From IMG/VR virus record IMGVR_UViG_3300035670_000235, positions 1 through 59,340 of that record: a stretch of 59,340 bases of DNA; one strand, 5' to 3'. This DNA comes from a virus (Duplodnaviria > Caudoviricetes). Below the pieces are notes generated by a model. That model worked only from the letters and a program-made list of their open reading frames with translations, made no database searches and had not been told where the DNA came from. The position numbers and the translations under genes are program-made. Position 1 is the stretch's first letter; every line of letters starts with the position of its first letter. Positions 2,454 to 54,419 of this stretch are shown here, in pieces.

Positions 2454-3362
2454 ATGGCAATTTCACGCGCACAGTTGCTCAAGGAACTCCTTCCGGGCCT
2501 TAACGCCCTGTTCGGCCTTGAGTACAAGAAGTACGAAGACGAGCATGCGGAGATCTATGAGACGGAAAACTCTGAGCGTTCGTTTGAAGAGGAAGTGAAG
2601 CTTTCGGGATTCGGCGCTGCGCCGGTCAAGAACGAAGGCTCCGCGATCTCCTACGACAACGCCCAAGAGTCGTTCACCGCTCGCTACAACCACGAAACGA
2701 TTGCTATGGGTTTCGCGATCACGGAAGAAGCCATGGAGGACAACCTCTATGACTCGCTCTCGTCGCGTTACACCAAGGCTCTCGCTCGTGCGATGGCGTA
2801 CACGAAGCAAGTCAAGGCGGCCTACCCGCTGAACGCTGGCTTCAACACGTACCAGTCGGGCGACGGTGTTACGCTGTTCAGCACCTCGCACCCCTTGGTG
2901 TCGGGTGGCGTTAACTCCAACCGTCCGACGGTGGGTGTTGACCTGAACGAGACGTCGTTGGAAGCGGCAGTCATTCAGATCGCTGACTGGACGGACGAGC
3001 GTGGTCTTTTGATCGCTGCCCGTCCGCGCAAGCTCATCGTTCCGCCTGACCTGATGTTCGTGGCTCAGCGTATCCTCGCGACGGAACTCCGTCCGGCGAC
3101 CGCCGACAACGACATCAACGCCCTTCGTTCGATGGGTGTCATTCCGGAAGGGTTCTCTGTGAACCACTACCTGACTGACACGAACGCTTGGTTCTTGATG
3201 ACCGACGTTCCCAATGGCATGAAGCACTTTGTCCGTGCGCCGCTTGAGACGAGCATGGACGGAGACTTCGATACCGGGAATGTGCGGTACAAGGCTCGCG
3301 AGCGTTATTCGTTCGGCGTGTCTGATCCGCTCGGCATCTTCGGATCGCCCGGCGCGACCTGA
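2454..3362 (+). CDS. Major capsid protein (HK97 fold, Mu gpT-like)
   Basis: MAISRAQLLKELLPGLNALFG...KLIVPP...RYKARERYSFG; high-expression codon bias; followed by terminator. Confidence 0.9.
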   Translation: MAISRAQLLKELLPGLNALFGLEYKKYEDEHAEIYETENSERSFEEEVKLSGFGAAPVKNEGSAISYDNAQESFTARYNHETIAMGFAITEEAMEDNLYDSLSSRYTKALARAMAYTKQVKAAYPLNAGFNTYQSGDGVTLFSTSHPLVSGGVNSNRPTVGVDLNETSLEAAVIQIADWTDERGLLIAARPRKLIVPPDLMFVAQRILATELRPATADNDINALRSMGVIPEGFSVNHYLTDTNAWFLMTDVPNGMKHFVRAPLETSMDGDFDTGNVRYKARERYSFGVSDPLGIFGSPGAT

Positions 3363-3374
3363 TAGCAGGCAAAT

Positions 3375-3407
3375 AGGAGGGGGTCGCAAGACCCCCTTCT
3401 TTCCTTT
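3375..3407 (+). terminator. Intrinsic terminator after MCP
   Basis: AGGGGGTC-GCAA-GACCCCCT hairpin followed by pyrimidine/T tract. Confidence 0.7.
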
Positions 3408-19061: not shown

Positions 19062-19070
19062 AGAGGAATC

Positions 19071-19406
19071 ATGGCTGATTCAATCAAAGTACTAGGTCAG
19101 GTTTCTCCAGCAGCCACTACGCTGACTGATTTGTATGTTGTACCTGCCCAAGCGCAGACCACGGTCAGCAGCATCACGGTCTGCAACACCGGGTCTTCTG
19201 CAGTCACGATCCGCATTTCAGTGGCAGTGGCAAACGCTGCCGACAACGTGAAGCAGTACATCTACTACGACTATGTGATCGGGGCGAAAGACACCCTGCT
19301 CATTGTTATTGGGATGACCCTGAATGAAACCGATAGGGTCAAGGTTTATGCCAGCGCCACCAATGTTGCATTCAACATCTTTGGCGTAGAGACAGCGAGA
19401 GAGTAA
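19071..19406 (+). CDS. Small beta-rich virion protein
   Basis: KVLGQ..P.ATT.TDLY.VP...VCN...FNIFGVE. Confidence 0.6.
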   Translation: MADSIKVLGQVSPAATTLTDLYVVPAQAQTTVSSITVCNTGSSAVTIRISVAVANAADNVKQYIYYDYVIGAKDTLLIVIGMTLNETDRVKVYASATNVAFNIFGVETARE

Positions 19407-19409
19407 ACA

Positions 19410-34290: not shown

Positions 34291-35370
34291 ATGTGGATTG
34301 ATGGCATGGCTCAGAAGATAACCGATAAAGAGTTCATTGACATCTGGAATGCAGCGCAATGCTCTCCAACGATAGTGTCAAAGATCACGGGGTTTACGGA
34401 GGCGGCAGTCTACAAACGTAGGCGGGGCTTGGCGGACAAGGGTATCGTCCTAAAGACAACCCAGAAGCAAGTCACCAGTAGCCACAGGTATGGCTGGGCT
34501 GCAATCAAGCAGCAGTTTCCTCTAGAAGTTCCTCTTTCAATCGGAACCGGCACCATCCTCTGCATATCAGATGCGCATTACTGGCCGGGTATCACCACGG
34601 TTGCCCACATAGCGGCTGTTGAATTTGCCAAACAGGAACGCCCCACCATCATCGCCGCTCTAGGCGATATGTTCGATGGAGCCACAGTCTCAAGGCATCC
34701 GCCCTTGGGATGGGAGAATCGACCAAGGGTTATTGACGAATTGGATGCCTGTCGGGAACGGATGAGTGAGTTCGAGAGAGCCTCGCCCGAATCCTTGAAG
34801 GTGTGGCATGTGGGAAACCATGATGCCAGATTCGATCGAACCCTAGCCCTGAACACCTACCAGTACGAGGGCTTAGCTGGGTTCTCTATCACAGACTATT
34901 TCAAGCAGTGGCAGTTCACCTACATGAGCAAGGTGAACAACCAACTGGGTATGCGACACCGGCCTGTCAATGGCGGTGTCCACTCTGGTTATAACTCTGC
35001 ACTTAAATACGGACTGAGTTACGCACATGGCCACCTTCACCAGTTGAAGGTCACCCCTGTAGACAATGCCAATGGCCGTCTCTGGGGTATCGACTGCGGC
35101 CACTTGGCTGATCCTGATGGCCCTCAGTTTGCCTACCGAGAAGGGCTAACCATCGGCGCTTGCTCAGGCTTTGCGCTGCTGTCTTTCTACAAGGGACAGA
35201 TGGTGGATGCCGAGATCTGCCATGTGAACAACCTCGGCGCTTTCTTCAGGGGTCAGATGATCGTTTCAAAGACTGTCGTTCCCGACGACGCCGCCGCTGA
35301 AAACAGTGGGAGCAAAGCAAAGAAGACTTCCGGTTCCCGGAAACCTCGCAGCGGCAAAGGACGCACCTAA
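34291..35370 (+). CDS. Calcineurin-like metallophosphoesterase with N-terminal HTH
   Basis: SDAH, GDMFD, GNHD, H, GHLH motifs; start possibly 34306. Confidence 0.8.
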   Translation: MWIDGMAQKITDKEFIDIWNAAQCSPTIVSKITGFTEAAVYKRRRGLADKGIVLKTTQKQVTSSHRYGWAAIKQQFPLEVPLSIGTGTILCISDAHYWPGITTVAHIAAVEFAKQERPTIIAALGDMFDGATVSRHPPLGWENRPRVIDELDACRERMSEFERASPESLKVWHVGNHDARFDRTLALNTYQYEGLAGFSITDYFKQWQFTYMSKVNNQLGMRHRPVNGGVHSGYNSALKYGLSYAHGHLHQLKVTPVDNANGRLWGIDCGHLADPDGPQFAYREGLTIGACSGFALLSFYKGQMVDAEICHVNNLGAFFRGQMIVSKTVVPDDAAAENSGSKAKKTSGSRKPRSGKGRT

Positions 35371-35715: not shown

Positions 35716-36042
35716 TCAAAACGGAAGCGGATCATCCGGATCTTCAGCTTGGGTAGGCGGGGGGTTTGCCTTGTACCCAGATGATCCACCGCCGTTGAAC
35801 TCCTTCTTCGGCTTGGCCTCTACCGGCTCATACTTGATGTAGTGGTAGGGGTTGCCAGCCTTGCTCACGCGATTCCAGATAGCGACCTTCAACGCTGGCT
35901 CCTTGCCTTCCTTCAGGAGGCTGACCAACTGCTTGAGGGTTTCCTTGTTGACCACGAACTCGCCAGTGATGTCCGGCTTATTCGGAGCATCCTTGTACTT
36001 GTTCGGGTAGATCTGGCCGTCGCCACTAATTCTCTGTTCCAT
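35716..36042 (-). CDS. Putative single-stranded DNA-binding protein
   Basis: NKYK...KPD.TG...VAIW..SKAG; Gly-rich linker and acidic DDPLPF tail; next to annealase. Confidence 0.65.
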   Translation of the reverse strand: MEQRISGDGQIYPNKYKDAPNKPDITGEFVVNKETLKQLVSLLKEGKEPALKVAIWNRVSKAGNPYHYIKYEPVEAKPKKEFNGGGSSGYKANPPPTQAEDPDDPLPF

Positions 36043-36049
36043 ACTTTCC

Positions 36050-36700
36050 TCACTTTACCTTCGTTGCATACATCTTGAACTTCTTAACGAGATCGTCGTA
36101 GCCGGTTACCCCGTCTGCGTCTGTGATCTCTCTAAGATCCGAGAACCAAGGCTCCAACTTACGGAAGAATCCGTTGAGTTCAGTCTTGGCTTTGAACTTC
36201 GCTACATGCTTCTCGACTGCCTCCAGGAATGCTTGGTGTTCCTCTGGCGTCTTCACTCGATTCGGCGCTACAAACTCTTCCTCTTCAGGCAGGTCAGATC
36301 CTGCGAAGATGTAGAGTCCGAGGCCGAACAACGCAAAGCACTTCACGAGGCAGCGCATCTTGGTGTCCGAGATAGCCCGGGCATCTGGGTTCTGCACTGC
36401 GTTGTTGCGGTTATCCATCACCGGCAACCACATGTGCCGAGTCACGCCCTGCACGATGACCGTGCAGTGGACTGAGCAAGTGCGATCAGGGTAGTAGAGG
36501 ACATCCCTGTCCATACCGTCTACATCCCTGAAGGTTGACCAAATGATCTGCATATCGGGGAAGTGATCCATCATGGTCTGGTATGCCCATGCCCATGAAA
36601 GATAGGTCAGGTGACCCTTCTTCTCCGTGTGATCGTTTACGTTCAGCTTACTAAGCGTCTGCCAAATCTGCTTGGCATTGCTTGCTTCTGTGTTACTCAC
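36050..36700 (-). CDS. Sak-like (Rad52-family, DUF1071) single-strand annealing protein; start GTG 36700
   Basis: VNDHTEKKG.LTYLSWAWA; LPVMD.RN; MRCLVK..A.FGLGLYIFAG.DLP. Confidence 0.85.
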   Translation of the reverse strand: MSNTEASNAKQIWQTLSKLNVNDHTEKKGHLTYLSWAWAYQTMMDHFPDMQIIWSTFRDVDGMDRDVLYYPDRTCSVHCTVIVQGVTRHMWLPVMDNRNNAVQNPDARAISDTKMRCLVKCFALFGLGLYIFAGSDLPEEEEFVAPNRVKTPEEHQAFLEAVEKHVAKFKAKTELNGFFRKLEPWFSDLREITDADGVTGYDDLVKKFKMYATKVK

Positions 36701-37440
36701 GCCTTCATCTCCTTCATCGCTTGCCATTGAGAGCAGAACGGTGCGACCTGACACCAGTTGCCTTCGCACCGAATGTTCTTACCCTTGCGCAGCCACCGAT
36801 CCTCGTCTGTGCATTCAGGCAGTTCGCCTTTCATGGCGGCCTGGTGCATGGCAACACGTTGCTGCACGAAGTCGGTCTGCTTTATGAATCCCCACAGGGG
36901 GATCTCCAAGCACACCACAGGGGACTGAGGGTAGTCAAACTTCTTGTCTGCCTCGCTCCGTCGCCAGTCCCGCAGGATGGCCATGATGCGCAGTCGCTCG
37001 ACTTCATAGCCATGCTTGCGCCATAGCCAAGTGTAGAGATTCAACTGCTGTTCCCACTCAGGCTTGTCTGATCCAACCGCATACACGCTAGTGCATTTGT
37101 AGTCGGTCAGCATCTTCTCCTTGAGCGACATCGTGTCGGTCTGCCCACTGATCCGCCAGCCATCGATCTCGGCATAGAGTCGACGCTCTGGGATCAGGTT
37201 CTCATCACCCGCATTGGCATTCTCCAACGCCAAGTGGACTGCCTTGCCGAGCAGCTTGAACACTTCATCTCGATAGTCCACCGAGATATCCGCATCATGT
37301 TGTTCCGCTAGCGCAACAATCCTAGGCGACTTGATCAACTGCGTAACGGATAACGTTACGCCCTCGCCCTTGGTGTACGGGTCGTTCTGGACTGCCCGTA
37401 TCACCTCGATAGGTACGTTGTGTTTGTTGGTGTACTGCAT
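36697..37440 (-). CDS. Cas4-like / PD-(D/E)xK exonuclease
   Basis: SVTQL; G.AVH..LE; ISGQ.D...DYK; QLNLY; C-terminal Cys cluster. Confidence 0.8.
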   Translation of the reverse strand: MQYTNKHNVPIEVIRAVQNDPYTKGEGVTLSVTQLIKSPRIVALAEQHDADISVDYRDEVFKLLGKAVHLALENANAGDENLIPERRLYAEIDGWRISGQTDTMSLKEKMLTDYKCTSVYAVGSDKPEWEQQLNLYTWLWRKHGYEVERLRIMAILRDWRRSEADKKFDYPQSPVVCLEIPLWGFIKQTDFVQQRVAMHQAAMKGELPECTDEDRWLRKGKNIRCEGNWCQVAPFCSQWQAMKEMKA

Positions 37441-37682
37441 TACTTCACTCGATACACTAAGAAACTCTTGATCAGCCAGATCACTCGGTACTTCTCGCCC
37501 TTGCGATTGGCTAGTTCTTTCTTGATGGCACGGTAAGTGGCCTGTGTCCCAGTCTTACCCTGCACCGTGGACTCGACAATGAACCCATTGCCGACATCGA
37601 CGTTAGGCAGTTTCAGTTTGACTACCGGCTTCATCTCCACGGTTGCCTTCTTCTTTTTGAACTTCATCTCCTTGATCACCAT
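37440..37682 (-). CDS. Small basic protein
   Basis: 80 aa, AGGAG RBS, coupled to exonuclease. Confidence 0.55.
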   Translation of the reverse strand: MVIKEMKFKKKKATVEMKPVVKLKLPNVDVGNGFIVESTVQGKTGTQATYRAIKKELANRKGEKYRVIWLIKSFLVYRVK

Positions 37683-37965
37683 CTGTCCACTCCTGAATGC
37701 TGAGCATTTCGTCCATCGTTATTGCGGTGTTCATTAAAAAATCTAGGCCGCCATCTCTAACTGCATCGTAGTAAAACGTGATAGCACCCACTTCCCTAAA
37801 CCGGCTATCGACCTTGTGCATCCTGACCATCTGCCTATCCACCATGAAGGTAAGGCCAAAGCCTGTCAGGTTCTCTCGGGTGGCCGCATGCACAAAGGCA
37901 ATGGCCATCTCTTGTAGGTCTTCTGGAATAGGGGATCGAAACCCCTCAGGATTTCCTTGTCGCAT
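37603..37965 (-). CDS. Hypothetical protein (start probably MRQGNP)
   Basis: GGAG RBS before ATG 37965; the longer ORF overlaps RusA. Confidence 0.45.
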   Translation of the reverse strand: MRQGNPEGFRSPIPEDLQEMAIAFVHAATRENLTGFGLTFMVDRQMVRMHKVDSRFREVGAITFYYDAVRDGGLDFLMNTAITMDEMLSIQEWTDGDQGDEVQKEEGNRGDEAGSQTETA

Positions 37966-38020
37966 GTCTTTACTCCAAGTATGATCTTTGTTATGAAAGC
38001 CAATATTAGCGAGAAATAAA

Positions 38021-39326: not shown

Positions 39327-39396
39327 TACATACCGATAAAGAGTTTGAAAAAAACCGTGGTATGTAGAAAATATTCTGAACAGAAGGAGAAGACGC

Positions 39397-41163
39397 ATGC
39401 TAAGTATGACGAACGATGACGATATGATTGGACGGGCAGTCCAACATCTCGACAACGGGCAGCACAAGGTCGAATGTCCTAGCTGCCAACACACCAGAAA
39501 CAAGCACCGCCACGACAGACCTTTGTCGGTCTACGTGGATGGCCAATCTATTCGATGGACTTGCTGGCATTGCGGGGTTGAAGGCGGCATGGACAGATTT
39601 CAAAGCAACGTGACACCGATCAGACAGGTACAGGCAGTCAAGGCTCCCAAGCCCGAGATCGTCTTGGCTGATCTCAACGAGACGGACAAAGAGCAGGGCG
39701 TTCGCTACCTGAAGGAGCGAGGCATTCCTGCTGCTATCTCCGAGGAGTACTGCGTGTTCGGCAGGTGGGGCTTTGCTTCTGTAGGCAGTCTCCCTGCTAT
39801 TGGTTTCCCCTACCGCGAGAACAACAAGATCTTCGCGGTCAAGTGGCGCAGTGCTGACACTGACAAGCACTTCAGTCAGCAAGCGGTATGCACTAGCTTC
39901 TGGAACATTGATCGGGCAGTGGCGGGTAAGCCGCTGCTGATCTGTGAGGGCGAGATCGATGCCCTGTCATGGCTTGCTGCTGGCGTGGATGCCAACGTGG
40001 TGAGCGTCCCGAACGGTGCGCCGCAGCGCGTCAAGGATGGCGCCATCGATCCGCAGGATGATCGTCGCTTTGCCTATGTCTGGGAAGCGCAGGAGCTTCT
40101 CGCCAACACAGACCGCGTCTACTTCTCGCCTGACCTAGACCCTGCCGGTGAAGCCCTCATCGAGGAACTCTCTCGCAGGGTTGGCAAGGCCAAGTGCTGG
40201 CGGATCAATCTGCCATGCAAGGATGCCAATGAAACCCTCGCTCAGGCTGGCACAGACGGCCTATTGGCGGCTTTCAACTCTGCCCGACCCATCCCCATGG
40301 CTGGCCTCTACGGAGCCGACCACTACGCGCAGCGGTTCGACAATCTCTACAACGAGGGTCACACCAAAGGTGTCAGCACCGGCATCCCTGCCTTGGATCA
40401 GATCATGAACATCTCGGAGGGGATGATGACCGTGGTCACAGGGTTCCCGGGCAGTGGCAAGTCTGATCTCATCGATCAGGTCTGCCTCAATGCCGCGCAG
40501 CAGCATGGGTGGAAGACCGCCTTCTGTAGTTTCGAGAAGCCACCGCATCTGCACATGGCGCAGTTGGCTTCAAAGATCGTCGGCAAACCGTTCTTCGATG
40601 GCATGACAAAGCCCCGTATGTCTATCGAAGAGCGGGATGCCGCGCTTGGTTGGATGCTCGATCACTTCGTGTGGCTCGACTACATGGCCGGTGCGCCAGC
40701 CCACATCGAGGGCATCCTCGACTTTGCTCGTGCGGCAGTCATGCGTATGGGTGTGCGGATCTTGGTGATCGACCCCTATAACTTCATCGAGGTTGACACT
40801 AAGGATCGTCTGGAGACAGACGCCATCAACGGCATGCTCACCAAGGTGCAGCAGTTCGCCAAGCAATCCGGTGTGCATGTGTTCTTCGTGGCGCATCCGG
40901 CAAAGCCGATGGATCGTACACAGAAGGTGGTCACAGGATTGGATGTTGCCAAGTCGATGTCATGGTTTGCCAAGGCCGACCTTGGTCTGACTGTGACACG
41001 CACTGAGGATGGGCCAGAGGCGCATGTGTGGAAAGCGCGATGGCAGTGGCTTGGCAGAATGGGAATGGCGTATTTACAATTTGATCCTGCTAGCACAAGA
41101 TGGTCGGATCGGCAATACGCTGCAGCGAAACCGGATAACTTTGACTGGAACATTGACAACTAG
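39397..41163 (+). CDS. Bifunctional primase-helicase (Zn finger, TOPRIM, SF4; T7 gp4/Twinkle-like)
   Basis: CPSC...CWHC; ICEGEIDALS; SVPNGA; KDANE; GFPGSGKS; VIDPYN; VAHP. Confidence 0.92.
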   Translation: MLSMTNDDDMIGRAVQHLDNGQHKVECPSCQHTRNKHRHDRPLSVYVDGQSIRWTCWHCGVEGGMDRFQSNVTPIRQVQAVKAPKPEIVLADLNETDKEQGVRYLKERGIPAAISEEYCVFGRWGFASVGSLPAIGFPYRENNKIFAVKWRSADTDKHFSQQAVCTSFWNIDRAVAGKPLLICEGEIDALSWLAAGVDANVVSVPNGAPQRVKDGAIDPQDDRRFAYVWEAQELLANTDRVYFSPDLDPAGEALIEELSRRVGKAKCWRINLPCKDANETLAQAGTDGLLAAFNSARPIPMAGLYGADHYAQRFDNLYNEGHTKGVSTGIPALDQIMNISEGMMTVVTGFPGSGKSDLIDQVCLNAAQQHGWKTAFCSFEKPPHLHMAQLASKIVGKPFFDGMTKPRMSIEERDAALGWMLDHFVWLDYMAGAPAHIEGILDFARAAVMRMGVRILVIDPYNFIEVDTKDRLETDAINGMLTKVQQFAKQSGVHVFFVAHPAKPMDRTQKVVTGLDVAKSMSWFAKADLGLTVTRTEDGPEAHVWKARWQWLGRMGMAYLQFDPASTRWSDRQYAAAKPDNFDWNIDN

Positions 41164-42513: not shown

Positions 42514-42915
42514 CTAGGAGGGTCTTGTTTCAACTTCCCCCTCCATGCGCATGACTTCGAACCCACTGAAGTCCACGGGATCAACCAGTTCTATCTGGTG
42601 TCCACCCATGATCTCTTCGTAGGCAGTCGATAGGGCGATCATCGTCATGCGGAAATGATCTACGTCATGTGGGACATGCGTTGCCAAGCCTACCCGCAGA
42701 ACCCCATTGCTCTCATAGACATGGTTGACCATGCCCATGCAGATGGAGGCATCTCGGTTGGCAGAGATGATGGCAGCACAGCATTGCGCCAGCACCTCAA
42801 CTAGCCTCTCTGCTGAACGCAGACAGGCTTCTTCGTTCTTCATGATCAAGATCCTAGGCATCACGACATTGATGTCGATCTCATCTGGGATCACAGGTTT
42901 CTTCTTTCTAGCCAC
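42514..42915 (-). CDS. Hypothetical protein (start GTG 42915)
   Basis: GGAG RBS just after the terminator; ORF track 42514..43023. Confidence 0.5.
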   Translation of the reverse strand: MARKKKPVIPDEIDINVVMPRILIMKNEEACLRSAERLVEVLAQCCAAIISANRDASICMGMVNHVYESNGVLRVGLATHVPHDVDHFRMTMIALSTAYEEIMGGHQIELVDPVDFSGFEVMRMEGEVETRPS

Positions 42916-42925
42916 AGCTAACTCC

Positions 42926-42959
42926 AAAAAAAAGCCCGTTGGGTTTGACGCCAACGGGC
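42926..42959 (-). terminator. Intrinsic terminator
   Basis: GCCCGTTGG-8 nt-CCAACGGGC followed by T8 on the - strand. Confidence 0.85.
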
Positions 42960-43010
42960 AAAGTTCACCACAACCACGGAGTGAAGACGCATGAGATGGG
43001 TGGTGAGGCG
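42926..43010 (-). ncRNA. Putative antisense sRNA targeting phage translation-initiation regions
   Basis: Extended -10-like TGTTAAATT upstream, terminator downstream, 8-11 nt complementarity to five start regions. Confidence 0.5.
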
Positions 43011-43020
43011 CAGAATTTAA

Positions 43021-43035
43021 CATAACATTGTTATG
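43021..43035. repeat. Palindrome CATAACA(W)TGTTATG, first of 9 copies
   Basis: Copies at 43021, 47192, 48907, 50397, 51589 (variant), 51933, 52306, 53057 (14-mer), 53751. Confidence 0.9.
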
Positions 43036-43483
43036 CAGAGGGGCTATTGCCCTTCATTTTTTCCACAGCCTCGGCCGCCAACCCCATGTAGGCAGCCCCA
43101 TCTATCCAGTTATCGATGTCAGATCCGGTGCGTTCTCGGCAGAGCTTGAGAACCACCATGAATAACCAGCCCTCGACCTCGGTCATCTTGTGATCGGTCA
43201 GGGCTTCGAAGGTCTTGACAATCCTTTGCATCGAGCGTTCCTGCCCGTTGTCCCTGCGCCTGCCCCGCTCAGCAATCATGTCCTTGGCTTCCTGCAATAC
43301 AGCCTCGGGTGTCAATCCCTTGACAGGCTGTGCGTTGAGTACCTTCATCATGTCGGACAGCAGATAGGCCGCCTCGGACATGCAGTCGGAGTAGGCAGTG
43401 GCGGGGTGCGTTGAAGACCAGCCATGCAACTCATAGATCAGTTGCTCTGCACGTAGCCTCATCTCAATGGGTATAGGGGACAT
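43031..43483 (-). CDS. DUF6378-like protein
   Basis: A..MI.ERG...ERSM..IV..F; GW.FM..LK..R; D.WID.AAY. Confidence 0.7.
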   Translation of the reverse strand: MSPIPIEMRLRAEQLIYELHGWSSTHPATAYSDCMSEAAYLLSDMMKVLNAQPVKGLTPEAVLQEAKDMIAERGRRRDNGQERSMQRIVKTFEALTDHKMTEVEGWLFMVVLKLCRERTGSDIDNWIDGAAYMGLAAEAVEKMKGNSPSA

Positions 43484-47176: not shown

Positions 47177-47237
47177 GCTTATCTCCTATTACATAACAAT
47201 GTTATGCAGCCGATGGCTGCATACAGCCGCAACGCGG

Positions 47238-47648
47238 CTACCAACTGGCCTGATAAATCACCATGCGGTATTCACCTGGCACTCTGTTCTCCATGTCGCT
47301 CACCCACAGCAAGGCTCTCTGAAAGATGGCGACATCCTCTGCAACCCTCTCATCACTAGTTTGTGATACGCCAAAGAAAAAGCCTTCAGTGAATGGCAAC
47401 TTCCTTGTTTTGATTGCCGATATAACCTCCCTGATATCAGGCTCTGTTAGGTATATCTCTCGACAATCATCGACACCACTGGCGAAACTCTGCACCATGT
47501 AGCCATGCAGGTTGGGATGCTTACGCCAGTAGCCCAACTCATATCGCTTCGACCTCAGTCGAAAGCCATCCTCCATGATGTTCTTACTCGGGTCTTCGAA
47601 GTCATCGATGAATGACTTCTCACCAGTCAGGTACATATCAAGTCCCAT
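47238..47648 (-). CDS. Conserved phage protein (MGLDMY...YWRK...Y.ASW family)
   Basis: MGLDMYL, GYWRKHPNLHG, GFFFG, YQASW. Confidence 0.7.
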   Translation of the reverse strand: MGLDMYLTGEKSFIDDFEDPSKNIMEDGFRLRSKRYELGYWRKHPNLHGYMVQSFASGVDDCREIYLTEPDIREVISAIKTRKLPFTEGFFFGVSQTSDERVAEDVAIFQRALLWVSDMENRVPGEYRMVIYQASW

Positions 47649-47660
47649 GTCATCACTCCT

Positions 47661-47927
47661 TTAGTATTTGTATAAGGTACTCAGTACAGGCAGGGTTGGT
47701 CTGTTCCGGTCTGTTGTGAACATCGCCCCCGCCCCATTACCCTCATCGTCCATGCTAGGCCATAGCAACGTGCCGTCATCCAGTTCAAAGATAACTGACC
47801 GTGTATGCCAACCGAGTCGCTTCGCCTCCTTCTTGTCAAGGTATCGAGCAGCCACAATCGTGCGGCCAACCAGTAAGTCTTGAGCAGCCTTTTCCCAATG
47901 CTGCTCTGGGTTTTGAATGATGCTCAT
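47661..47927 (-). CDS. Hypothetical protein (start probably MSIIQ)
   Basis: LVGRTIV..RY; PSMDDEGNG.G. Confidence 0.55.
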   Translation of the reverse strand: MSIIQNPEQHWEKAAQDLLVGRTIVAARYLDKKEAKRLGWHTRSVIFELDDGTLLWPSMDDEGNGAGAMFTTDRNRPTLPVLSTLYKY

Positions 47928-48868
47928 TAATAGCCACCCATTTCCCATTCGACCCTCATGTTGAAGGGCGTGAGGCCGTGATCGGTGAACAACTCCTCGA
48001 TCCACTGCGCTGCCATAACCGGATCATCTGCCACGATGTCCTCGCATTCGGCACTCTCGTAGGCGAACTCCAACAAGGCGCTGGCTTTCCACGGCGCATC
48101 GTTGACCCACTGCAGTAGGTTGTTGTTGAGCCATGAGTTGTAGGCAGCCTTGACCACCACCTTCATCTCTGTCGGTGAGTTGCGAGATACCTCCTTGCTT
48201 TTCTTGTTGTATGAATAGCCCTCCTCCCAGTCGTAGTAGGAATACTCACCGGCATAGCGACTGCCATAGGAGGAATACACAGAGGCGCCAGAGGTTTTAG
48301 CGCCAAGCCCATATCTACCGGCAGACCATGCGTAGGTGTTGGAGAGCCACGCACCTTGGAAGGTCACGCCTGCACTGCGATTGATGATGATGGACTCGCC
48401 GGTGTGCAGCATGAAGCCGAACTTGTTAGTGCCACCGATCAGATCGCCAAGGAACGCCTGATACTGCGGATCGAGCAGTAGCGCAGGGTTATACGACACA
48501 GCAGGCTCGATGACATTGCGGATGAAGTGCCAGGTATCGGACTTCTTCTTGTCGTTGTCATTGCCTGACGAGAGGATGCCGTTGTGCGCCATCCAGATGT
48601 TCTTGGTCACCATGTAGGGATGGCAGTTGTCGAGGTCGATATCGCCGTGAGTCTGCATACGGGCATGCCAGATGCAGTCACGACCATCTGCATACTGACG
48701 ATAGAACTCCACGAAATCCTGCGCCGTCTTGGGCAGCAGCTTCTTGACTACAACATGGCCAGCCTCGGCGTACATGATGCCGATGCCGTCACGGTTCTTG
48801 CTATACACGTCACGCAGGAAATCGTCGGTGAATTGGGTATCTTGATTCTGTTGAACTAACAAACACAT
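47927..48868 (-). CDS. Class II (Ntn) glutamine amidotransferase
   Basis: MC start, N.DG.G, H.RM.THG, NCHP, HNG, SDT. Confidence 0.85.
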   Translation of the reverse strand: MCLLVQQNQDTQFTDDFLRDVYSKNRDGIGIMYAEAGHVVVKKLLPKTAQDFVEFYRQYADGRDCIWHARMQTHGDIDLDNCHPYMVTKNIWMAHNGILSSGNDNDKKKSDTWHFIRNVIEPAVSYNPALLLDPQYQAFLGDLIGGTNKFGFMLHTGESIIINRSAGVTFQGAWLSNTYAWSAGRYGLGAKTSGASVYSSYGSRYAGEYSYYDWEEGYSYNKKSKEVSRNSPTEMKVVVKAAYNSWLNNNLLQWVNDAPWKASALLEFAYESAECEDIVADDPVMAAQWIEELFTDHGLTPFNMRVEWEMGGY

Positions 48869-48916
48869 TGTCATTACTCCTTGGTTGATTTGATTGTCGA
48901 GCCTTGCATAACAATG

Positions 48917-50380
48917 TTATGCGGCTTCTTCTGTTGATATTTCTGCTCGTCCACTAATGCGCTGCGATACATACGCTCGCAGTATTTTGGTGTCTGCTGC
49001 CAACTGCTTGGAGCAGAAGGTCAGGAACGCACCGGCTGACAGTTGATTGATGCCGGTGTTGGCTGGCTTGCAGAACTCGAGTATGGCGTGGCAGAACTCG
49101 ATTGCTGCGATCACGGCCTCGTACTTGAGACTGCCTCGGAAGATGCGGAACTCGATAGTGCGGCGGTTAGTGAGATTGACTGCCTCATATCTGTCGTGTC
49201 CGATGTGGATAGACTTGCCGACCTTCTTGTCGGACTTGACCACACAGAAGCCCGATGAGTAGCGGCGAGCCAATGCGCGGATGAACCACTCGTTTTCAGG
49301 TGAATTGACAAAAGCCACGACCTTCTGGATTTGAAGGTCAGTCAGGCCACGACGGCTGACATGGACATGCAGACCACAGGTAGTGGTGTTATGGCTACGC
49401 ATACCGCGAGTGATCGATCGCTGCGTGAGGAAGGTGAATAGATCACGCTGTGCGGGCAGTGACATAGGATCGGTGATCATCTCGAAGCCGCAGGACAGAG
49501 ACCCGTCACGCTCGAAGAACAGACGGTGACCGCTGTTCTCGACGTAATCCTTGATCATCTGTGCTTGTGAGGTGCGACTGGTCTCGACGCACTCGACCTC
49601 CAACTCGACGCCGATAAATCGGTCGTGCTTGGTAGTCCACTCGTCATTCTTATGCACGACACTGCTCTTGGATGAGTGGTACTCGCGGATGAGCGGAGGT
49701 GAGTACTCGTCATGGACGTACATCTCACGATCTTCGTCGTAGGTGAAGTCACCAGTGTTGTTGGAACTGATGGACACCTCGTTGCCATGATGATCGAGGG
49801 CAGTGCATACATCGTCGTTGTGGATGTAGCGATCCTCGTAGTCTGACCAAGTGTAGTTATCGTCGCAGCAACTTGGGCAAACGCTGTGGTAGTCGCCCAC
49901 GTTGCGCGAGTCATCTTCTGAGGTTATCTCGCCGCAGTCATCGCAGGTGAACGTGCCGATTGCGTTCTGCATGTACTCAAGAGCATCGGAGCCATCGCAT
50001 ACATAAGGCTCGTCGCAGTAGCGATGCCACAGGCGTAGTCGATCTGTCGAGATAGACTCATCCCGATAACTGACCTCGTTTTGGTACATCACCCATGGCA
50101 GCATGAAGCCATTGTCTTTGCAGGCGTCGGTCAACGGTCGCAGGATAAAACTCACGCAGTGATGGCGTGTGATGTTGTGCCGCCCGTCAACGCCTTGGTA
50201 CTCGTTGGTACGATAGGACGGCGTGGAAACGATGAACTTCTCCATCAGACTGATGGCAGTGTCACGTTCCTCGCTGTACAGTTTTAGGTAGGCCTTGATG
50301 AACGATCGCTGCCTGAAACGCGATAGGTCATGCGGATCGTCAAAAGCCCAAGCGAAATACTTTAAGCCGAAAATATGCAT
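48917..50380 (-). CDS. Putative amidoligase (Amidoligase_2-like) with N-terminal Cys-rich region
   Basis: GVELEVE, RDGSL..GFEM.T, TCGLHVHVS, RY.AVN, TIEFRIFRGS; start ATG 50380. Confidence 0.85.
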   Translation of the reverse strand: MHIFGLKYFAWAFDDPHDLSRFRQRSFIKAYLKLYSEERDTAISLMEKFIVSTPSYRTNEYQGVDGRHNITRHHCVSFILRPLTDACKDNGFMLPWVMYQNEVSYRDESISTDRLRLWHRYCDEPYVCDGSDALEYMQNAIGTFTCDDCGEITSEDDSRNVGDYHSVCPSCCDDNYTWSDYEDRYIHNDDVCTALDHHGNEVSISSNNTGDFTYDEDREMYVHDEYSPPLIREYHSSKSSVVHKNDEWTTKHDRFIGVELEVECVETSRTSQAQMIKDYVENSGHRLFFERDGSLSCGFEMITDPMSLPAQRDLFTFLTQRSITRGMRSHNTTTCGLHVHVSRRGLTDLQIQKVVAFVNSPENEWFIRALARRYSSGFCVVKSDKKVGKSIHIGHDRYEAVNLTNRRTIEFRIFRGSLKYEAVIAAIEFCHAILEFCKPANTGINQLSAGAFLTFCSKQLAADTKILRAYVSQRISGRAEISTEEAA

Positions 50381-50471
50381 GGTCTTCACTCCTTTGCATA
50401 ACATTGTTATGTGGCCTTTGGCCACGTACAGGCGCAAGCGCCTTCCCGTTTAATAATTATTCAACACGCTA

Positions 50472-51530: not shown

Positions 51531-51597
51531 GTGACTCACTCCTCTGTTGTTTGCTGTCGTCACGTACAGGCGCTGAAGCGCCTTTCCACATAACAAG

Positions 51598-51819
51598 TTA
51601 TGCGACAAGTTTGCCGCTTCGAATTAGGGCAGGCTCTGCACCCAAAGCCACTGCCTTCTCATACAGGGCGACGGCATGGAGTTTGTCTCCCACGACAATC
51701 ACCTGACCCTTGATCTTGATCGCCCAACGGGATGCCCCCTTGTTGCGGAGGTTGTCCATCACGCGGGCAGTTGTGCCGCCTGTCTGGAGGCGGTCATAAG
51801 TACGGCTATCGAGTCTCAT
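51598..51819 (-). CDS. Hypothetical protein (start MRLDSR)
   Basis: AAGGAG RBS; stop inside a palindrome copy. Confidence 0.55.
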   Translation of the reverse strand: MRLDSRTYDRLQTGGTTARVMDNLRNKGASRWAIKIKGQVIVVGDKLHAVALYEKAVALGAEPALIRSGKLVA

Positions 51820-51849
51820 GCGATTCTCCTTCTGGCTTGTTGAACACCC

Positions 51850-52350
51850 ACGGCTGCCCTGTCTCCCAACAAGGCAGCCTAGGCTGTCCACTACTGCGGT
51901 ACAGCGATATATGCGGATACTGATGGCAGCGACATAACATTGTTATGTGCTTCAGCCACTAACGCCGCAGGACATACATTGCCTGTCCGTATCGGCTACG
52001 GAGCAAGTCATCTAGGCGTCTATGCACACAGGCTTAACACGATCGAACCGGCTATCCGGTGCTGTGACCCGACAGACCGCAGTCCATCTATCGTCAATCG
52101 TCTACCCTTATAGGGCTGTCTAACACCTTCTTGTGTGTGTACACAGAAACCGACTTGTCACGACTTCACTCCTCGCGTGTGCAGCCCACACGCCAGCGCA
52201 TCATTGCCCGAACAGAGTGTCAGTCTGTCCCGATCCTTTTCCAGATCGTTTCAGGGGTCACCGCCCATAACTAGGCTCGCCCATCCCGCCTACCGACTGA
52301 ACTTACATAACATTGTTATGCAAACTTGTAATGCCTTATCCAGTCTTGGC
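51850..52350 (-). ncRNA. ~500-nt structured non-coding leader/ncRNA candidate
   Basis: Directly downstream of a consensus promoter, no - strand ORF of 60 aa or more across most of it, many hairpins. Confidence 0.5.
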
Positions 52351-52356
52351 TCCGCC

Positions 52357-52385
52357 ATTATAGCAAATGTATATACATATGTCAA
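52357..52385 (-). promoter_or_regulatory. Perfect-consensus sigma70 promoter
   Basis: TTGACA-17 nt-TATAAT, spacer contains TGTATATACA. Confidence 0.9.
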
Positions 52386-52483: not shown

Positions 52484-53053
52484 ATGCCGAGCAATCAACC
52501 GACTATGCAGGGGCTGAAGCCTCTGACTAAAAATGCCATTAAGTTCTGTGAGTTAGTGGTGAAGGGCGACCGTCCGGTGCAGGCCTATGCGACCGCCTAT
52601 CGTCCTGGAGAGAACGCCAAGAAAGCGTCTATACATTCTGCGGCCGCCCGTCTGATGGGCGATCCGAGGGTGCAGCGACACATCGAGGGGCTGAAGCGAA
52701 AGAGCGAGAAGGCGCTTCTGGAGCAGAGCATCGGACTGAGGGAGTGGACGCTCACCCGTCTGAAAGAGGAGGCGAGTGACAGAAACAGCCCGCCTGCCTC
52801 GCGTGTGTCTGCCCTATCGATTCTGGCGAGGGCATCGAAACTGATCGAGACTGGCAGCCAGCAAGTGAACGTGAATGTGGCGAATGTCACCCGCCCGTCT
52901 GCCGAGGTGGAGAGCGAACTGATCGCCCGTCTGTCTGCGCTAGTGCAAGCGCCTGTCAGCCATGACGATGCAGAGGATGAGGACGACATTCTGGGCGAGG
53001 ATGGCAGCGAGGATGACGTCGAGGGCGAGGGTGATGACGCGGAAAGCGCGTAG
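52484..53053 (+). CDS. terS: Terminase small subunit-like protein
   Basis: LT....KFC...G....QAY..AY...SAAARL..DPRV HTH pattern; acidic tail. Confidence 0.7.
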   Translation: MPSNQPTMQGLKPLTKNAIKFCELVVKGDRPVQAYATAYRPGENAKKASIHSAAARLMGDPRVQRHIEGLKRKSEKALLEQSIGLREWTLTRLKEEASDRNSPPASRVSALSILARASKLIETGSQQVNVNVANVTRPSAEVESELIARLSALVQAPVSHDDAEDEDDILGEDGSEDDVEGEGDDAESA

Positions 53054-53078
53054 CCACATAACATGTTATGCAAAAAGC

Positions 53079-53623: not shown

Positions 53624-53711
53624 AGGATTCTCCCAATGGTTGTGAGTGTGCTATGTCCGCACCGATTCCAGATTTTTACAGAGCGAGTCGGCCGCTAGTG
53701 CCGACATGGAT

Positions 53712-53739: not shown

Positions 53740-54419
53740 GCCCTATCTCGCATAACAATGTTATGGCCACCTAGCGGACACCTGTAAAATTTCACAAGGA
53801 ACTGCCAGTCTCACCCTGGCGTCGCTCAAAGAATTACCAAAGAAATCACCCATACCCGCTTCGCGTGACGCTGGCGCGCGTCTGCGTGTACCCCCGACCC
53901 CCCGCTGCGCGTGACGGTACCCGCGCGCGACCCGTACACTATTCCGCTTATTAGATTCCCAACACTCCGACCCCCACCCGGTTGCTTAAAAACCACACCC
54001 CATTCCCACAGGCAGTTCCCCTTTTTTTTTGCAATAAAGTCATAGGAACCCCTACCCCACGGGGGGATATGCGATGTACGTACAACGTACACACATCGTT
54101 CATACCTATATCCGCTAGATGGACACAAAGTAAAATCGTATAAAACTGCCTACTGAATCTCCTAACGCTATGAATCTAATCAGGATTACTTGTAAAAAAA
54201 TACCTGTTGAATTTTTTGTCAAGGGGGGGTAGCATGCTAAAATCGAGGGAAATCCCCCCTAAGAACCCCCGGGTATTCCAACGTAAAGTCTGTATTAAGT
54301 CAGTACTGTTTGCAGGGGGTTATGCCTCGGGGCTAGTGAAGCCCCTCGGCATGGTGTATATATATACGCTGTACCGCGCGGCTTACTAGGCAGTTCTTAT
54401 TCTCAACCTTGACCCTAAT

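What the first reader, a model, noticed from the sequence alone, without database searches (positions are those of the whole stretch)
42926..43020. Candidate multi-target antisense sRNA complementary to the translation starts of many phage genes
Seen: a - strand non-coding unit ends in a strong terminator and contains UCUCAUGCGUCUUCACUCCGUGGUUGUG. It is complementary to the RBS/start regions of primase-helicase (GAAGACGCATG, 11 nt, 39389-39399), amidoligase (GGAGTGAAGAC, 11 nt, 50382-50392) and GATase (11/12 nt, 48876-48887). It also matches the gene starting at 51819 (9 nt, 51814-51822), the leader of the gene starting at 53623 (8 nt, 53637-53644) and a site in the 52-kb non-coding region (9 nt, 52164-52172). 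Other early genes use GGAGTG RBSs. Inference: one anti-Shine-Dalgarno sRNA shuts off early and replication translation. Alternative: a relic + strand start site with a 9-codon mini-ORF (42991-43020).
Basis: partly seen in the sequence, partly recalled or inferred. Interest (0 to 1): 0.8.

Follow-up and report, generated by a model that had tools for sequence, protein, structure and literature searches.

The report
Phage small RNA matching gene starts
A conserved, roughly 80-base phage RNA gene carries in an exposed loop a sequence complementary to the ribosome-binding regions of several of the phage's own DNA-metabolism genes, so it probably switches their translation down, and it may explain similar unexplained start-site motifs in other phages.

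Summary
On the - strand at 42926-43007 lies a compact non-coding unit: an extended -10-like promoter element, a hairpin with a ~20-nt apical loop, and an intrinsic terminator with a T8 tail. It recurs in 11 IMG/VR contigs and 19 of 47 pattern-matched metagenome loci (13 distinct variants), always between the same two genes. Both stems show compensatory changes (10 of 19 pairs; 0 of 500 shuffles reach this).

The loop core UGCGUCUUYACUCC is invariant in all 13 variants. It is complementary to a family of start regions, GGAGTRAAGAC(N0-2)ATG and GGAG(N1-3)AGACGC-ATG. These serve amidoligase, GATase, primase-helicase and other non-structural genes, and recur at orthologous genes in related genomes.

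With an accessibility-aware energy model, 11 of 92 start regions reach -12 kcal/mol or better. Loop shuffles give a mean of 1.4-1.9 (0 of 150 reach 11). Mid-gene and antisense controls give 0 of 92 each.

The + strand mini-ORF is not conserved. No RNA data exist, so expression and repression are inferred.

The nearest Rfam families are the Burkholderia anti-RBS sRNAs, matched only below threshold. The motif-plus-palindrome layout parallels the unexplained SAS/ESAS of Cluster K mycobacteriophages. In phage Anaya the lone reverse SAS likewise sits in a hairpin loop.

The parts
42926..43007 (-). Predicted small RNA (about 80 nt), from the inferred start near 43007 to the end of the T8 run
   Evidence: Covariance model R1 matches 42926-43016 at 98 bits and 19 loci from metagenomes at 79-98 bits. 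MFE -30.2 kcal/mol, z -3.74, 0 of 200 shuffles fold as well. The 5' end is inferred, not mapped.
43014..43022 (-). Extended -10-like promoter element TGtTAAATT (TG 43022..43021, hexamer 43019..43014), 7 nt upstream of the hairpin base
   Evidence: A TGnTAnnnT element is present in 13 of 13 distinct variants. In 11 it lies 31-37 nt upstream of the core. In 2 it lies 62 nt upstream, with a 30-nt insertion between. The middle hexamer positions vary while T1, A2 and T6 are kept. Promoter function is inferred.
43021..43035 (.). 15-bp perfect palindrome CATAACAWTGTTATG overlapping the sRNA promoter element and the stop codon of gene A; operator-like
   Evidence: 7 perfect copies in the window, all between 43 and 54 kb; 8 matches at up to 3 mismatches, which 0 of 100 shuffles reach. 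Two 14-bp variants. 7-10 copies in each of G001, G002, G004 and G005, and 3 in the partial contig G003. The binding factor is unknown.
42965..43006 (-). Hairpin 1: stem of about 10 pairs enclosing the apical loop
   Evidence: RNAalifold consensus. On 14 distinct rows, helix 1 has 5 of 9 pairs with changes on both sides and 93.7% of cells paired.
42978..42996 (-). Apical loop UCUCAUGCGUCUUCACUCC; invariant core UGCGUCUUYACUCC at 42978-42991 (the anti-start-region seed)
   Evidence: Core identical in all 13 true variants apart from Y, while the flanking gene A protein falls to 44-67% identity in the more distant genomes G002, G004 and G005. Unpaired in the consensus structure.
42926..42959 (-). 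Intrinsic terminator: stem-loop 42959..42934 and T8 at 42933..42926
   Evidence: Helix 3 has 4 of 9 pairs with changes on both sides and 100% of cells paired.
39386..39399 (+). Predicted target: primase-helicase start region GGAGAAGACGC-ATG
   Evidence: GGAG(N1-3)AGACGC directly before ATG in 6 of 6 genomes, while the sequence further upstream differs. -15.8 kcal/mol in the window, rank 3 of 92. -12.8 in G002, rank 4 of 87.
50378..50392 (-). Predicted target: amidoligase start region GGAGTGAAGAC-C-ATG, 4 nt after a palindrome
   Evidence: 11 contiguous complementary bases. -16.9 kcal/mol, rank 2 of 92. G in genomes whose sRNA has C (window, G001, G004); A in G005, whose sRNA has U.
48866..48882 (-). 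Predicted weaker target in the window: GATase start region GGAGTAATGAC-A-ATG
   Evidence: The orthologues in G002, G004 and G005 read GGAGTAAAGAC. It is the top hit in G002 at -16.7 kcal/mol. It is not among the 16 best in the window.
47646..47659 (-). Predicted target: start region GGAGTGATGAC-ATG of the 136-aa gene 47238..47648
   Evidence: -14.4 kcal/mol. The orthologue in G003/G004 reads GGAGTAAAGAC.
37963..37976 (-). Start region GGAGTAAAGAC-ATG of the first gene of the recombination block (37603..37965); motif member, one central mismatch to the window's sRNA
36698..36712 (-). Predicted target: Sak-like annealing protein start region GGAGATGAAGGC-GTG
   Evidence: Best energy in the window, -18.0 kcal/mol. 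Gene identified by PHROG 659, E 3.7e-44.
52159..52172 (-). Complementary site GGAGTGAAGTCGTG in the roughly 530-nt leader of the leftward early operon
   Evidence: The homologous site in G004 is a perfect 13-mer, GGAGTGAAGACGC.
52357..52385 (-). Consensus sigma-70-type promoter TTGACA-17-TATAAT with TG; likely early leftward promoter
   Evidence: 12 of 12 matches.
43031..43483 (-). Gene A (DUF6378), upstream neighbour in all variants
   Evidence: Pfam PF19905, E 7.2e-10. Synteny.
42514..42915 (-). Gene B (133 aa, no family), starts 8-40 nt after the terminator in all variants seen
   Evidence: AlphaFold2 pLDDT 81.2; no PDB match at E <= 0.001.
42991..43020 (+). + strand 9-codon mini-ORF: judged not a real feature
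   Evidence: A start codon is present in 6 of 13 variants. Peptides differ in sequence and length.

Best explanation
The locus is a phage gene for a roughly 80-nt trans-acting antisense RNA of the 'double-hairpin' type.

Proposed mechanism:
1. Host RNA polymerase starts at an extended -10 promoter at the 3' end of gene A. In this clade the promoter is overlapped by a 15-bp palindromic operator-like site.
2. Transcription stops at a strong intrinsic terminator.
3. The RNA folds into one hairpin whose ~20-nt apical loop displays the invariant sequence UGCGUCUUYACUCC, followed by the terminator hairpin and a U8 tail.
4. The loop pairs with the Shine-Dalgarno sequence plus spacer, and in some cases the start codon, of a family of phage mRNAs.
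5. Pairing occludes the ribosome-binding site and lowers translation, perhaps with mRNA decay.

The target start regions share GGAGTRAAGAC(N0-2)AUG or GGAG(N1-3)AGACGC-AUG. They serve primase-helicase, amidoligase, GATase, the Sak-like annealing protein and other non-structural genes. There is also a site in the early leader.

Shown here: the element's conservation, its structure, its terminator, the loop-to-start-region complementarity above controls, and the recurrence of the motif at orthologous genes.

Inferred: transcription, the 5' end, the direction of regulation, the timing and any chaperone.
For: 1. Conservation. The core pattern is found in 11 IMG/VR contigs. Model R1 matches 19 of 47 metagenome loci at 79-98 bits, plus the window. 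That gives 13 distinct true variants, always between gene A and gene B.

2. Structure. There are 19 consensus pairs. On 14 distinct rows 96.5% of cells are paired. 10 pairs show changes on both sides, against 3.6 in shuffles (0 of 500 reach this). Slid controls give 0-2 such pairs and 23-49% of cells paired. That alignment was fitted to the model, but the first MAFFT/RNAalifold run on 9 sequences already gave 7 of 19 compensatory pairs.

3. Transcription signals. TGnTAnnnT is present in 13 of 13 variants at a fixed distance. The terminator carries T7-8 in all.

4. The loop core is invariant although gene A protein identity falls to 44-67% in the more distant genomes.

5. Motif enrichment. GGAGTRAAGAC at up to 1 mismatch occurs 7 times on the strand that carries the sRNA and the early genes. 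On the other strand it occurs only at the locus itself. The pattern is similar in the 5 related contigs.

6. Energies (hybrid plus opening energies on both sides). 11 of 92 start regions reach -12 kcal/mol or better. Loop shuffles give a mean of 1.43, and 1.85 with CUCC fixed; 0 of 150 reach 11 in either set. Mid-gene controls give 0 of 92 and antisense controls 0 of 92. In the divergent genome G002 the mean of the top five is -14.5 against -11.3, reached by 2 of 120 shuffles.

7. Orthologous start regions keep the complementary spacer while their flanks diverge. The primase start region keeps AGACGC before ATG in 6 of 6 genomes. The amidoligase motif has G where the sRNA has C (3 genomes) and A where it has U (G005).

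8. Sub-threshold likeness to Burkholderia anti-RBS sRNAs. Their CU-rich unpaired stretches are reported to pair with ribosome-binding sites (PMC5688073, passages).
Against: There is no expression evidence of any kind. No listed sequencing run is on record as RNA.

The start-region set rests on my own rough gene calls. These contain errors; for example, 20412 is an internal start and 3389..2463 is spurious.

A genome-wide duplex scan without accessibility terms, using a 31-nt query, was dominated by GC-rich coding sites. The start regions were not at the top of that scan.

In G002 the enrichment is modest: 5 start regions reach -12 kcal/mol against a mean of 1.64, and 7 of 120 shuffles reach 5.

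Covariation between sRNA and targets amounts to one C/U split across two clades. Within the C-type genomes several motif copies carry A or C at that position, which would mismatch (GATase, the 37965 gene, G004 copies).

Part of the shared motif (GGAGTGA) could reflect extended pairing with the 16S rRNA 3' end rather than with the sRNA. That point rests on my own knowledge of the E. coli-type 16S tail; the host is unknown.

The unit sits directly upstream of gene B, so a cis role is not excluded.
Confidence: 0.55

Rival explanations
1. The element is a cis-acting leader or attenuator of gene B. The hairpin and terminator would set how much transcription reads into gene B and the genes beyond, and the conserved loop would be the binding site of a protein or antitermination factor rather than a base-pairing seed.
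For: The terminator ends 8-40 nt before the start of gene B in every variant with enough flank. Synteny of A, element and B is invariant.
Against: A promoter-like element sits immediately upstream in 13 of 13 variants, which suggests a separate short transcript. No alternative (antiterminator) pairing was seen in the single-sequence or consensus folds. The loop core is complementary to a start-region family far above controls, which a protein site would not require. The two roles are not mutually exclusive.
Confidence: 0.15
2. It is a phage-encoded anti-Shine-Dalgarno sRNA whose main targets are host mRNAs (host take-over), like the Burkholderia double-hairpin 'toxic' sRNAs. Complementarity to phage start regions would then be a side effect of both carrying Shine-Dalgarno-related sequence.
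For: Sub-threshold matches to RF02837 (30.7 bits) and RF02278 (20 bits) at exactly this locus and strand, and to RF02837 in 5 of 6 relatives. Those sRNAs are predicted to pair with many ribosome-binding sites, and overexpression of one of them (ncS27) attenuates growth (PMC5688073, passages).
Against: Shuffles that keep CUCC fixed still fall far short (0 of 150), so the match reaches beyond the Shine-Dalgarno core. The non-SD part, AAGAC(GC), recurs at orthologous phage start regions. The host is unknown, so host targets could not be tested.
Confidence: 0.15
3. The locus is a relic or live + strand translation start with a 9-codon mini-ORF (42991-43020), ended by the + strand terminator-like hairpin at 43038-43055.
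For: GGAG-N9-ATG and a terminator-like site on the + strand are present in the window.
Against: A start codon is present in only 6 of 13 variants. The peptides (MRWVVRRRI*, MRWGGEA*, longer in others) are not conserved. The T-run of the + strand hairpin is absent in the L006-L008 clade. Conservation is highest in the part that is unpaired loop on the - strand.
Confidence: 0.02
4. The element is a structured DNA or RNA element with another role (protein-binding RNA, replication or packaging signal). Its likeness to start regions would reflect its origin, as an inverted copy of a start region, rather than its function.
For: The loop's complement looks like a full start region (GGAGTGAAGACGCATG) in this clade. 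That is how an inverted duplication of the primase start would look.
Against: Hairpin covariation with a T-run on one strand only, plus the promoter element, point to an RNA made from the - strand. The invariance of exactly the complementary 14 nt across diverged genomes needs a sequence-specific partner.
Confidence: 0.08

Closest known systems
Burkholderia 'double-hairpin' / toxic small RNAs (Rfam RF02278) and anti-hemB ncS04 (RF02837)
   Same: Short RNAs of 57-105 nt. The RF02278 double-hairpin RNAs consist almost entirely of two hairpins. [quoted passage not shown] 55-80% of predicted interactions for the double-hairpin RNAs fall at gene starts (PMC5688073, passages read). The locus aligns end to end with both models on the right strand.
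   Different: Scores are below Rfam's thresholds (30.7 against 49.5; 20 against 50). Hairpin 1 aligns with 4 non-standard pairs. The seed here sits in an apical loop and reads CUUYACUCC, not CCUCC-type. The RNA is phage-encoded and its best matches are the phage's own start regions.
c4 antisense RNA of phages P1 and P7 (Rfam RF01695)
   Same: A phage-encoded, structured RNA whose loop sequences pair around the ribosome-binding site of a phage mRNA made elsewhere, and so block translation (review PMC12197685, passage on c4).
   Different: c4 acts on one operon (ant) for immunity. Here several unlinked genes on both strands carry the site. There is no Rfam C4 match in the window at gathering score, nor at E <= 10 at the locus.
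Start-Associated Sequences and extended SAS (SAS/ESAS) of Cluster K mycobacteriophages
   Same: An asymmetric conserved motif that includes the Shine-Dalgarno core and extends beyond it, lying a few bases before the start codons of a subset of non-structural genes. About half are preceded by inverted repeats. All are in one orientation, except a single reverse copy not linked to a gene start. The function is unknown (PMC3203893, passages; PMC11373665; PMC12699233). In Anaya I found 16 forward copies and 1 reverse copy. The reverse copy lies in the apical loop of a predicted hairpin in a 385-bp non-coding gap.
   Different: The motif sequence (GGGATAGGAGCCC), the host phylum and the phage lineage are all different. 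No sRNA has been proposed there in the texts I read. The parallel is my inference and was followed up only in part.
P22 sar and lambda OOP antisense RNAs
   Same: Small phage RNAs that base-pair with a phage mRNA and reduce its translation or stability (PMC12197685, section 2).
   Different: Those are cis-encoded, overlap their single target and are fully complementary. This one is encoded apart from its predicted targets and has partial complementarity to several.
T4 RegA translational repressor (recalled from general knowledge; the review PMC3014915 was seen only in a search listing)
   Same: One phage factor that lowers translation of many early mRNAs by occupying their start regions.
   Different: RegA is a protein. 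Here the proposed effector is an RNA.

Membership tests
Rfam RF02837 anti-hemB | Covariance-model score at or above the gathering score (49.5 bits) | tested here: not met
   30.7 bits, E 9e-06, model positions 1-81 of 81. Relatives score 24-29.7 bits in 5 of 6 loci. No match at gathering score.
Rfam RF02278 Betaproteobacteria toxic sRNA | Covariance-model score at or above the gathering score (50 bits) | tested here: not met
   20.0 bits, E 0.044.
Rfam RF01695 C4 antisense RNA | Match to the C4 covariance model | tested here: not met
   No match in the window at gathering score. Not among the matches at E <= 10 at 42800-43150.
Trans-acting base-pairing sRNA (general class) | Conserved secondary structure supported by covariation | tested here: met
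   10 of 19 pairs have changes on both sides; 0 of 500 shuffles reach this. 7 of 19 in an unfitted alignment.
Trans-acting base-pairing sRNA (general class) | Intrinsic terminator with a U-tail at the 3' end | tested here: met
   T7-8 in all 13 variants.
Trans-acting base-pairing sRNA (general class) | Own promoter and a discrete transcript | tested here: inconclusive
   An extended -10-like element is present in 13 of 13 variants, but no -35 element and no transcript data. The simple sigma-70 scan did not list it.
Trans-acting base-pairing sRNA (general class) | Conserved unpaired seed complementary to targets beyond chance | tested here: met
   (11 of 92 start regions against 0 of 92 for each of the mid-gene and antisense controls; 0 of 150 shuffles).
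Trans-acting base-pairing sRNA (general class) | Expression, and regulation of the targets | not testable with these tools
   No RNA holder listed. The laid runs were contigs.
SAS/ESAS-like start-motif system (Cluster K mycobacteriophages) | Asymmetric motif containing the SD core, within a few bases of start codons, mostly at non-structural genes, in one orientation | tested here: met
   All 7 window copies at up to 1 mismatch are on the strand of the - strand genes. 5 of the 7 stand directly before a start codon.
SAS/ESAS-like start-motif system (Cluster K mycobacteriophages) | Inverted repeats upstream of a subset of the motifs | tested here: met
   The palindrome lies 4-26 nt upstream of GGAG at 3 of 9 window copies, and similarly in relatives.
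SAS/ESAS-like start-motif system (Cluster K mycobacteriophages) | The consensus sequence GGGATAGGAGCCC | tested here: not met
   The motif here is GGAGTRAAGAC. The system is an analogue, not a member.

The most novel reading that the evidence does not exclude
Start-associated motifs of phage genes may be address labels read by a phage-encoded antisense 'loop RNA'. The one motif copy that lies in reverse orientation is the gene for that RNA.

On this reading the same three-part design has arisen independently in this uncultured phage group and in Cluster K mycobacteriophages. The three parts are an extended start motif on a set of non-structural genes, inverted repeats upstream of some of them, and one reverse copy displayed in a hairpin loop.

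That would give the first mechanistic explanation for SAS/ESAS, whose role has been reported as unknown since 2011.
Probability: 0.3. Interest if true: 0.85.

Novelty: new variant of a known kind. Interest (0 to 1): 0.72.

Why it matters
Known phage antisense RNAs mostly act on one overlapping or single target, or on host genes. A small RNA that addresses a whole set of the phage's own replication, recombination and DNA-modification genes through a shared start-region motif would be an RNA counterpart of protein translational repressors such as T4 RegA.

It would also show how a phage can time a block of genes after transcription.

It turns the unexplained SAS/ESAS motifs of Cluster K mycobacteriophages into a directly testable hypothesis: look for a transcript across the lone reverse SAS. 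It also provides a search recipe for other phages: find an extended start motif that has one reverse copy in a hairpin loop next to a terminator.

Tried and rejected
- RNA evidence. The look-up of sequencing runs listed no RNA holder. The four runs laid (X1, X2, X3, X10) were Logan contigs of relatives and say nothing on transcripts, starts or ends.
- Megablast of the locus against GenBank phages found no match. The nearest phage by primase-helicase protein is 36% identical (cyanophage records), so no annotated relative was available.
- The Rfam gathering scan of the whole window gave 0 matches.
- The genome-wide duplexfold scan with a 31-nt query and no accessibility term was dominated by GC-rich sites and dropped as a measure. 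A first accessibility script that used only untrimmed suboptimal duplexes under-scored short helices. It was replaced by a trimmed version.
- Genome contigs: 19 loci matched the 18-mer pattern, about what chance allows by my own rough estimate. None matched model R1 strongly. L133 and L142, and the metagenome loci L109 and L110, scored 23 bits with no terminator and were left out as doubtful. No host or prophage was found.
- Gene B: the AlphaFold2 model (pLDDT 81.2) had no PDB match at E <= 0.001. No Pfam or PHROG family was found. Its role is open.
- One literature search was badly aimed and gave nothing useful. Searches listed no paper describing a phage sRNA that addresses a family of the phage's own start regions.
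- Supplementary files were not asked for. The SAS site lists for Adephagia, Angelica and CrimD are in supplements I did not see.
- Considered and rejected: the + strand mini-ORF, and the ATG at 43023 as the start of gene B (no Shine-Dalgarno sequence, and a terminator would lie inside the gene).
Full report
WHAT THE WINDOW IS. The window is a complete IMG/VR virus record of 59,340 bp with a 127-bp direct terminal repeat and about 53% G+C.

No GenBank phage is close. Megablast of the locus finds nothing, and the best primase-helicase protein match is 36% identical.

Gene content:
- Packaging and structural genes lie on the + strand: small terminase at 52484, TerL at 54420, portal at 56357, then 298-35370.
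- A - strand recombination block lies at 35716-37965 (exonuclease, Sak-like annealing protein).
- A + strand primase-helicase lies at 39397-41163.
- A long - strand block of small non-structural genes runs from 51819 down to about 41342. It includes an amidoligase (48917-50380) and a class-II GATase (47927-48868).
- A 12-of-12 consensus sigma-70-type promoter with TG lies on the - strand at 52385..52357. It is followed by a leader of about 530 nt.

THE OBSERVATION. The unit lies between - strand gene A (43031-43483, DUF6378) and gene B. Gene B most likely starts at GTG 42915, behind GGAG at 42925..42922. The longer ORF from ATG 43023 has no Shine-Dalgarno sequence and would contain the terminator. 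The terminator-like hairpin at 42959..42934 with T8 is listed by the scan.

IS IT A GENE FOR AN RNA? Relatives were found through the two flanking proteins. They were also found through a degenerate pattern of the conserved core, in IMG/VR (11 contigs) and in metagenomes (47 pattern matches).

A covariance model built from 9 sequences matched the window and 19 of the 47 metagenome loci at 79-98 bits. It matched none of the 19 genome-contig loci strongly. This gives 13 distinct true variants.

The consensus fold has two parts: a hairpin with a stem of about 10 pairs and a ~20-nt apical loop, then the terminator hairpin. On 14 distinct rows:
- 96.5% of cells are paired.
- 10 of 19 pairs show changes on both sides, against 3.6 in shuffles (0 of 500 reach this).
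- Slid registers give 0-2 such pairs.

That alignment is fitted to the model, which favours the structure. However, the unfitted alignment already gave 7 of 19 compensatory pairs. The single sequence folds at -30.2 kcal/mol, z -3.74.

Upstream, all 13 variants carry TGnTAnnnT. The hexamers read TAAATT, TATGAT, TAGAAT, TAGGAT, TAAAGT, TACAGT and TAGATT. In 11 variants the element lies 7 nt before the base of the hairpin. In 2 it lies further up, with a 30-nt insertion that can itself form a hairpin. The keeping of TG, T1, A2 and T6 while the middle varies is what an extended -10 promoter would show. This is read from sequence and is not a mapped start.

A + strand start codon after GGAG exists in 6 of 13 variants, and the peptides differ.

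THE LOOP AND ITS MATCHES. The loop core UGCGUCUUYACUCC is identical in all 13 variants apart from Y. Over the same set, gene A protein identity falls to 44-67% and gene B to 42-48% in the more distant genomes.

Its complement, GGAGTRAAGAC, at up to 1 mismatch occurs 7 times in the window on the strand that carries the sRNA and the early genes. On the other strand it occurs only at the locus itself. The five related contigs show the same bias.

In the window, 5 of the 7 copies stand directly before a start codon, and one more lies in the early leader:
- amidoligase: GGAGTGAAGAC-C-ATG
- GATase: GGAGTAATGAC-A-ATG
- gene 47648: GGAGTGATGAC-ATG
- gene 37965: GGAGTAAAGAC-ATG
- one further copy, GGAGTCAAGAC, seven bases before an ATG that I did not assign to a gene
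- a site in the early leader, 52172..52159

A second class, GGAG(N1-3)AGACGC-ATG, is found at the primase-helicase gene on the other strand. It pairs with the 5' half of the core. AGACGC directly before ATG is kept in 6 of 6 genomes, although the sequence upstream of GGAG differs in each lineage and the first codons differ too.

The amidoligase motif has G in the three genomes whose sRNA has C, and A in G005, whose sRNA has U. Other copies are mixed, so this is weak covariation resting on a single split.

ENERGIES AGAINST BACKGROUND. A plain duplex scan with a long query was useless: GC-rich coding sites came out on top.

I then scored hybrid energy plus the cost of opening both partners. This used unpaired probabilities from local folding, with duplexes trimmed to their best sub-helix. 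The query was the loop region, and the targets were positions -40 to +20 of 92 called genes.

The best sites in the window were:
- Sak-like protein, -18.0 kcal/mol
- amidoligase, -16.9
- primase-helicase, -15.8
- genes 47648 and 51530, -14.4 each

Controls:
- 11 of 92 sites reach -12 kcal/mol or better. Shuffling the 20 loop bases gives a mean of 1.43; with CUCC held in place the mean is 1.85. 0 of 150 shuffles reach 11 in either set.
- Mid-gene windows of the same genes give 0 of 92. The antisense of the start regions gives 0 of 92.
- 9 of 45 non-structural genes reach the threshold, against 2 of 47 structural or packaging genes (Fisher p 0.02).
- In the most divergent near-complete relative (G002; 87 start regions) the top sites are GATase (-16.7), a gene after a palindrome (-15.9) and primase-helicase (-12.8). 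The mean of the top five is reached by 2 of 120 CUCC-fixed shuffles, and the count at -12 or better by 7 of 120.

Caveats: the gene calls are my own rough ones and contain errors, and the energy model is a home-made approximation of IntaRNA.

CONTEXT: THE PALINDROME. A perfect 15-bp palindrome, CATAACAWTGTTATG, occurs 7 times in the window, all between 43 and 54 kb. At up to 3 mismatches there are 8 matches, which 0 of 100 shuffles reach. There are two 14-bp variants. Each of G001, G002, G004 and G005 has 7-10 copies, and the partial contig G003 has 3.

Several copies lie 2-26 nt upstream of the start motif, for example at amidoligase, GATase and gene 47176. One (43021-43035) overlaps the sRNA's promoter element in the window, L002, L032 and L038 clades, but not in the G002/G005 clade. 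I take it for the site of a dimeric regulator. Nothing identifies the protein.

COMPARISON WITH KNOWN THINGS. At gathering score Rfam finds nothing. With permissive settings, the locus on the - strand, end to end, matches RF02837 anti-hemB at 30.7 bits (gathering 49.5) and RF02278 toxic sRNA at 20 bits (gathering 50). 5 of 6 relatives give 24-29.7 bits to RF02837.

[quoted passage not shown] 55-80% of the predicted interactions of the double-hairpin RNAs lie at gene starts, and overexpression of one of them slows growth (PMC5688073, passages; PMC4603805, passage). The element therefore works like that kind but is not a member by Rfam's own test.

Among phage RNAs, c4 of P1/P7 is the nearest in logic: loop sequences pair around a ribosome-binding site (PMC12197685, passage). 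It has one target operon, and there is no C4 match here. The sar and OOP RNAs are cis-antisense (same review, section 2). Searches listed no paper describing a phage sRNA aimed at a family of the phage's own start regions.

A PARALLEL WORTH FOLLOWING. Cluster K mycobacteriophages carry 13-bp Start-Associated Sequences just before the start codons of 13-19 non-structural genes. About half are preceded by inverted repeats (ESAS). [quoted passage not shown] The role was open in 2011 and is still called unknown in 2024 and 2025 (PMC3203893; PMC11373665; PMC12699233, which contains neither 'antisense' nor 'small RNA').

What I found in Anaya:
- 16 forward copies and 1 reverse copy at up to 2 mismatches in the right 36 kb.
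- The reverse copy lies in a 385-bp non-coding gap, after a hairpin followed by a T-run that I read by eye just past the gp96 stop. On the transcribed strand it sits in the apical loop of a long GC stem (z -5.0 for the gap).
- The region is conserved in 145 phage records.
- In an alignment of 7 phages the anti-SAS loop is kept in 5, altered in Ekdilam and replaced in SirPhilip. The stems show few compensatory changes.

This is the same three-part layout as in the window. It is my inference, only partly followed up, with no transcript evidence seen.

VERDICT. The RNA gene is real with high probability, about 0.85-0.9. I put at roughly even odds that it acts by pairing with several phage start regions, with primase-helicase and the amidoligase/GATase genes as the best-conserved candidates. 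Repression, timing and chaperone use are inferred.

It is a new variant of a known kind (anti-RBS base-pairing sRNA). It has an unusual feature: it is phage-encoded and apparently aimed at a start-motif family of the phage itself.

Noticed in passing
window 43021-43035, 47192-47206, 48907-48921, 50397-50411, 51933-51947, 52306-52320, 53751-53765; 14-bp variants at 51589-51602 and 53057-53070: A perfect 15-bp palindrome, CATAACAWTGTTATG, confined to the non-structural region. It is conserved in number and position in relatives and often lies 2-26 nt before the start motif. It is probably the site of an unidentified dimeric regulator.
   Followed up: partly
L148 (Mycobacterium phage Anaya JF704106) 34871-34883, within the non-coding gap 34683-35067: The single reverse-oriented Start-Associated Sequence of this Cluster K phage lies in the apical loop of a predicted long hairpin in a non-coding gap that is conserved in 145 phage records. 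This suggests an antisense RNA against SAS motifs.
   Followed up: partly
window 52357-52385 (- strand) and leader 51820-52350: A 12-of-12 consensus sigma-70 promoter with TG, followed by a leader of about 530 nt. The leader contains two palindromes and a site complementary to the sRNA loop (52172..52159), which is a perfect 13-mer in relative G004.
   Followed up: partly
window 42514-42915 (- strand): Gene B always follows the sRNA terminator. It has a basic N-terminus (MARKKKP) and invariant D84, D86, H87, F88 and R89. The model is confident (pLDDT 81) but matches no family and no solved fold.
   Followed up: partly
L103 and L120 (metagenome loci), upstream of the core: Two variants carry a 30-nt insertion, able to form its own hairpin, between the promoter-like element and hairpin 1. 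This would add a 5' stem-loop to the RNA.
   Followed up: no
L133, L109, L110, L142: Four loci (one in a Neomarinimicrobiota MAG) share 21 bases of the loop core but lack the terminator. They score only 23 bits with the model, so they are either chance or an unrelated element.
   Followed up: no
G002 (oriented coordinates) 17949-20172: In this relative the amidoligase homology starts at residue 129 of the window's protein, about 1.2 kb after the motif-bearing start. The gene may be split or may have a different N-terminal part.
   Followed up: no
window 9588-10531 and 22725-23113: Tandem repeats of about 300-330 nt and about 102-117 nt lie inside two large structural genes (727 aa and 1597 aa).
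   Followed up: no
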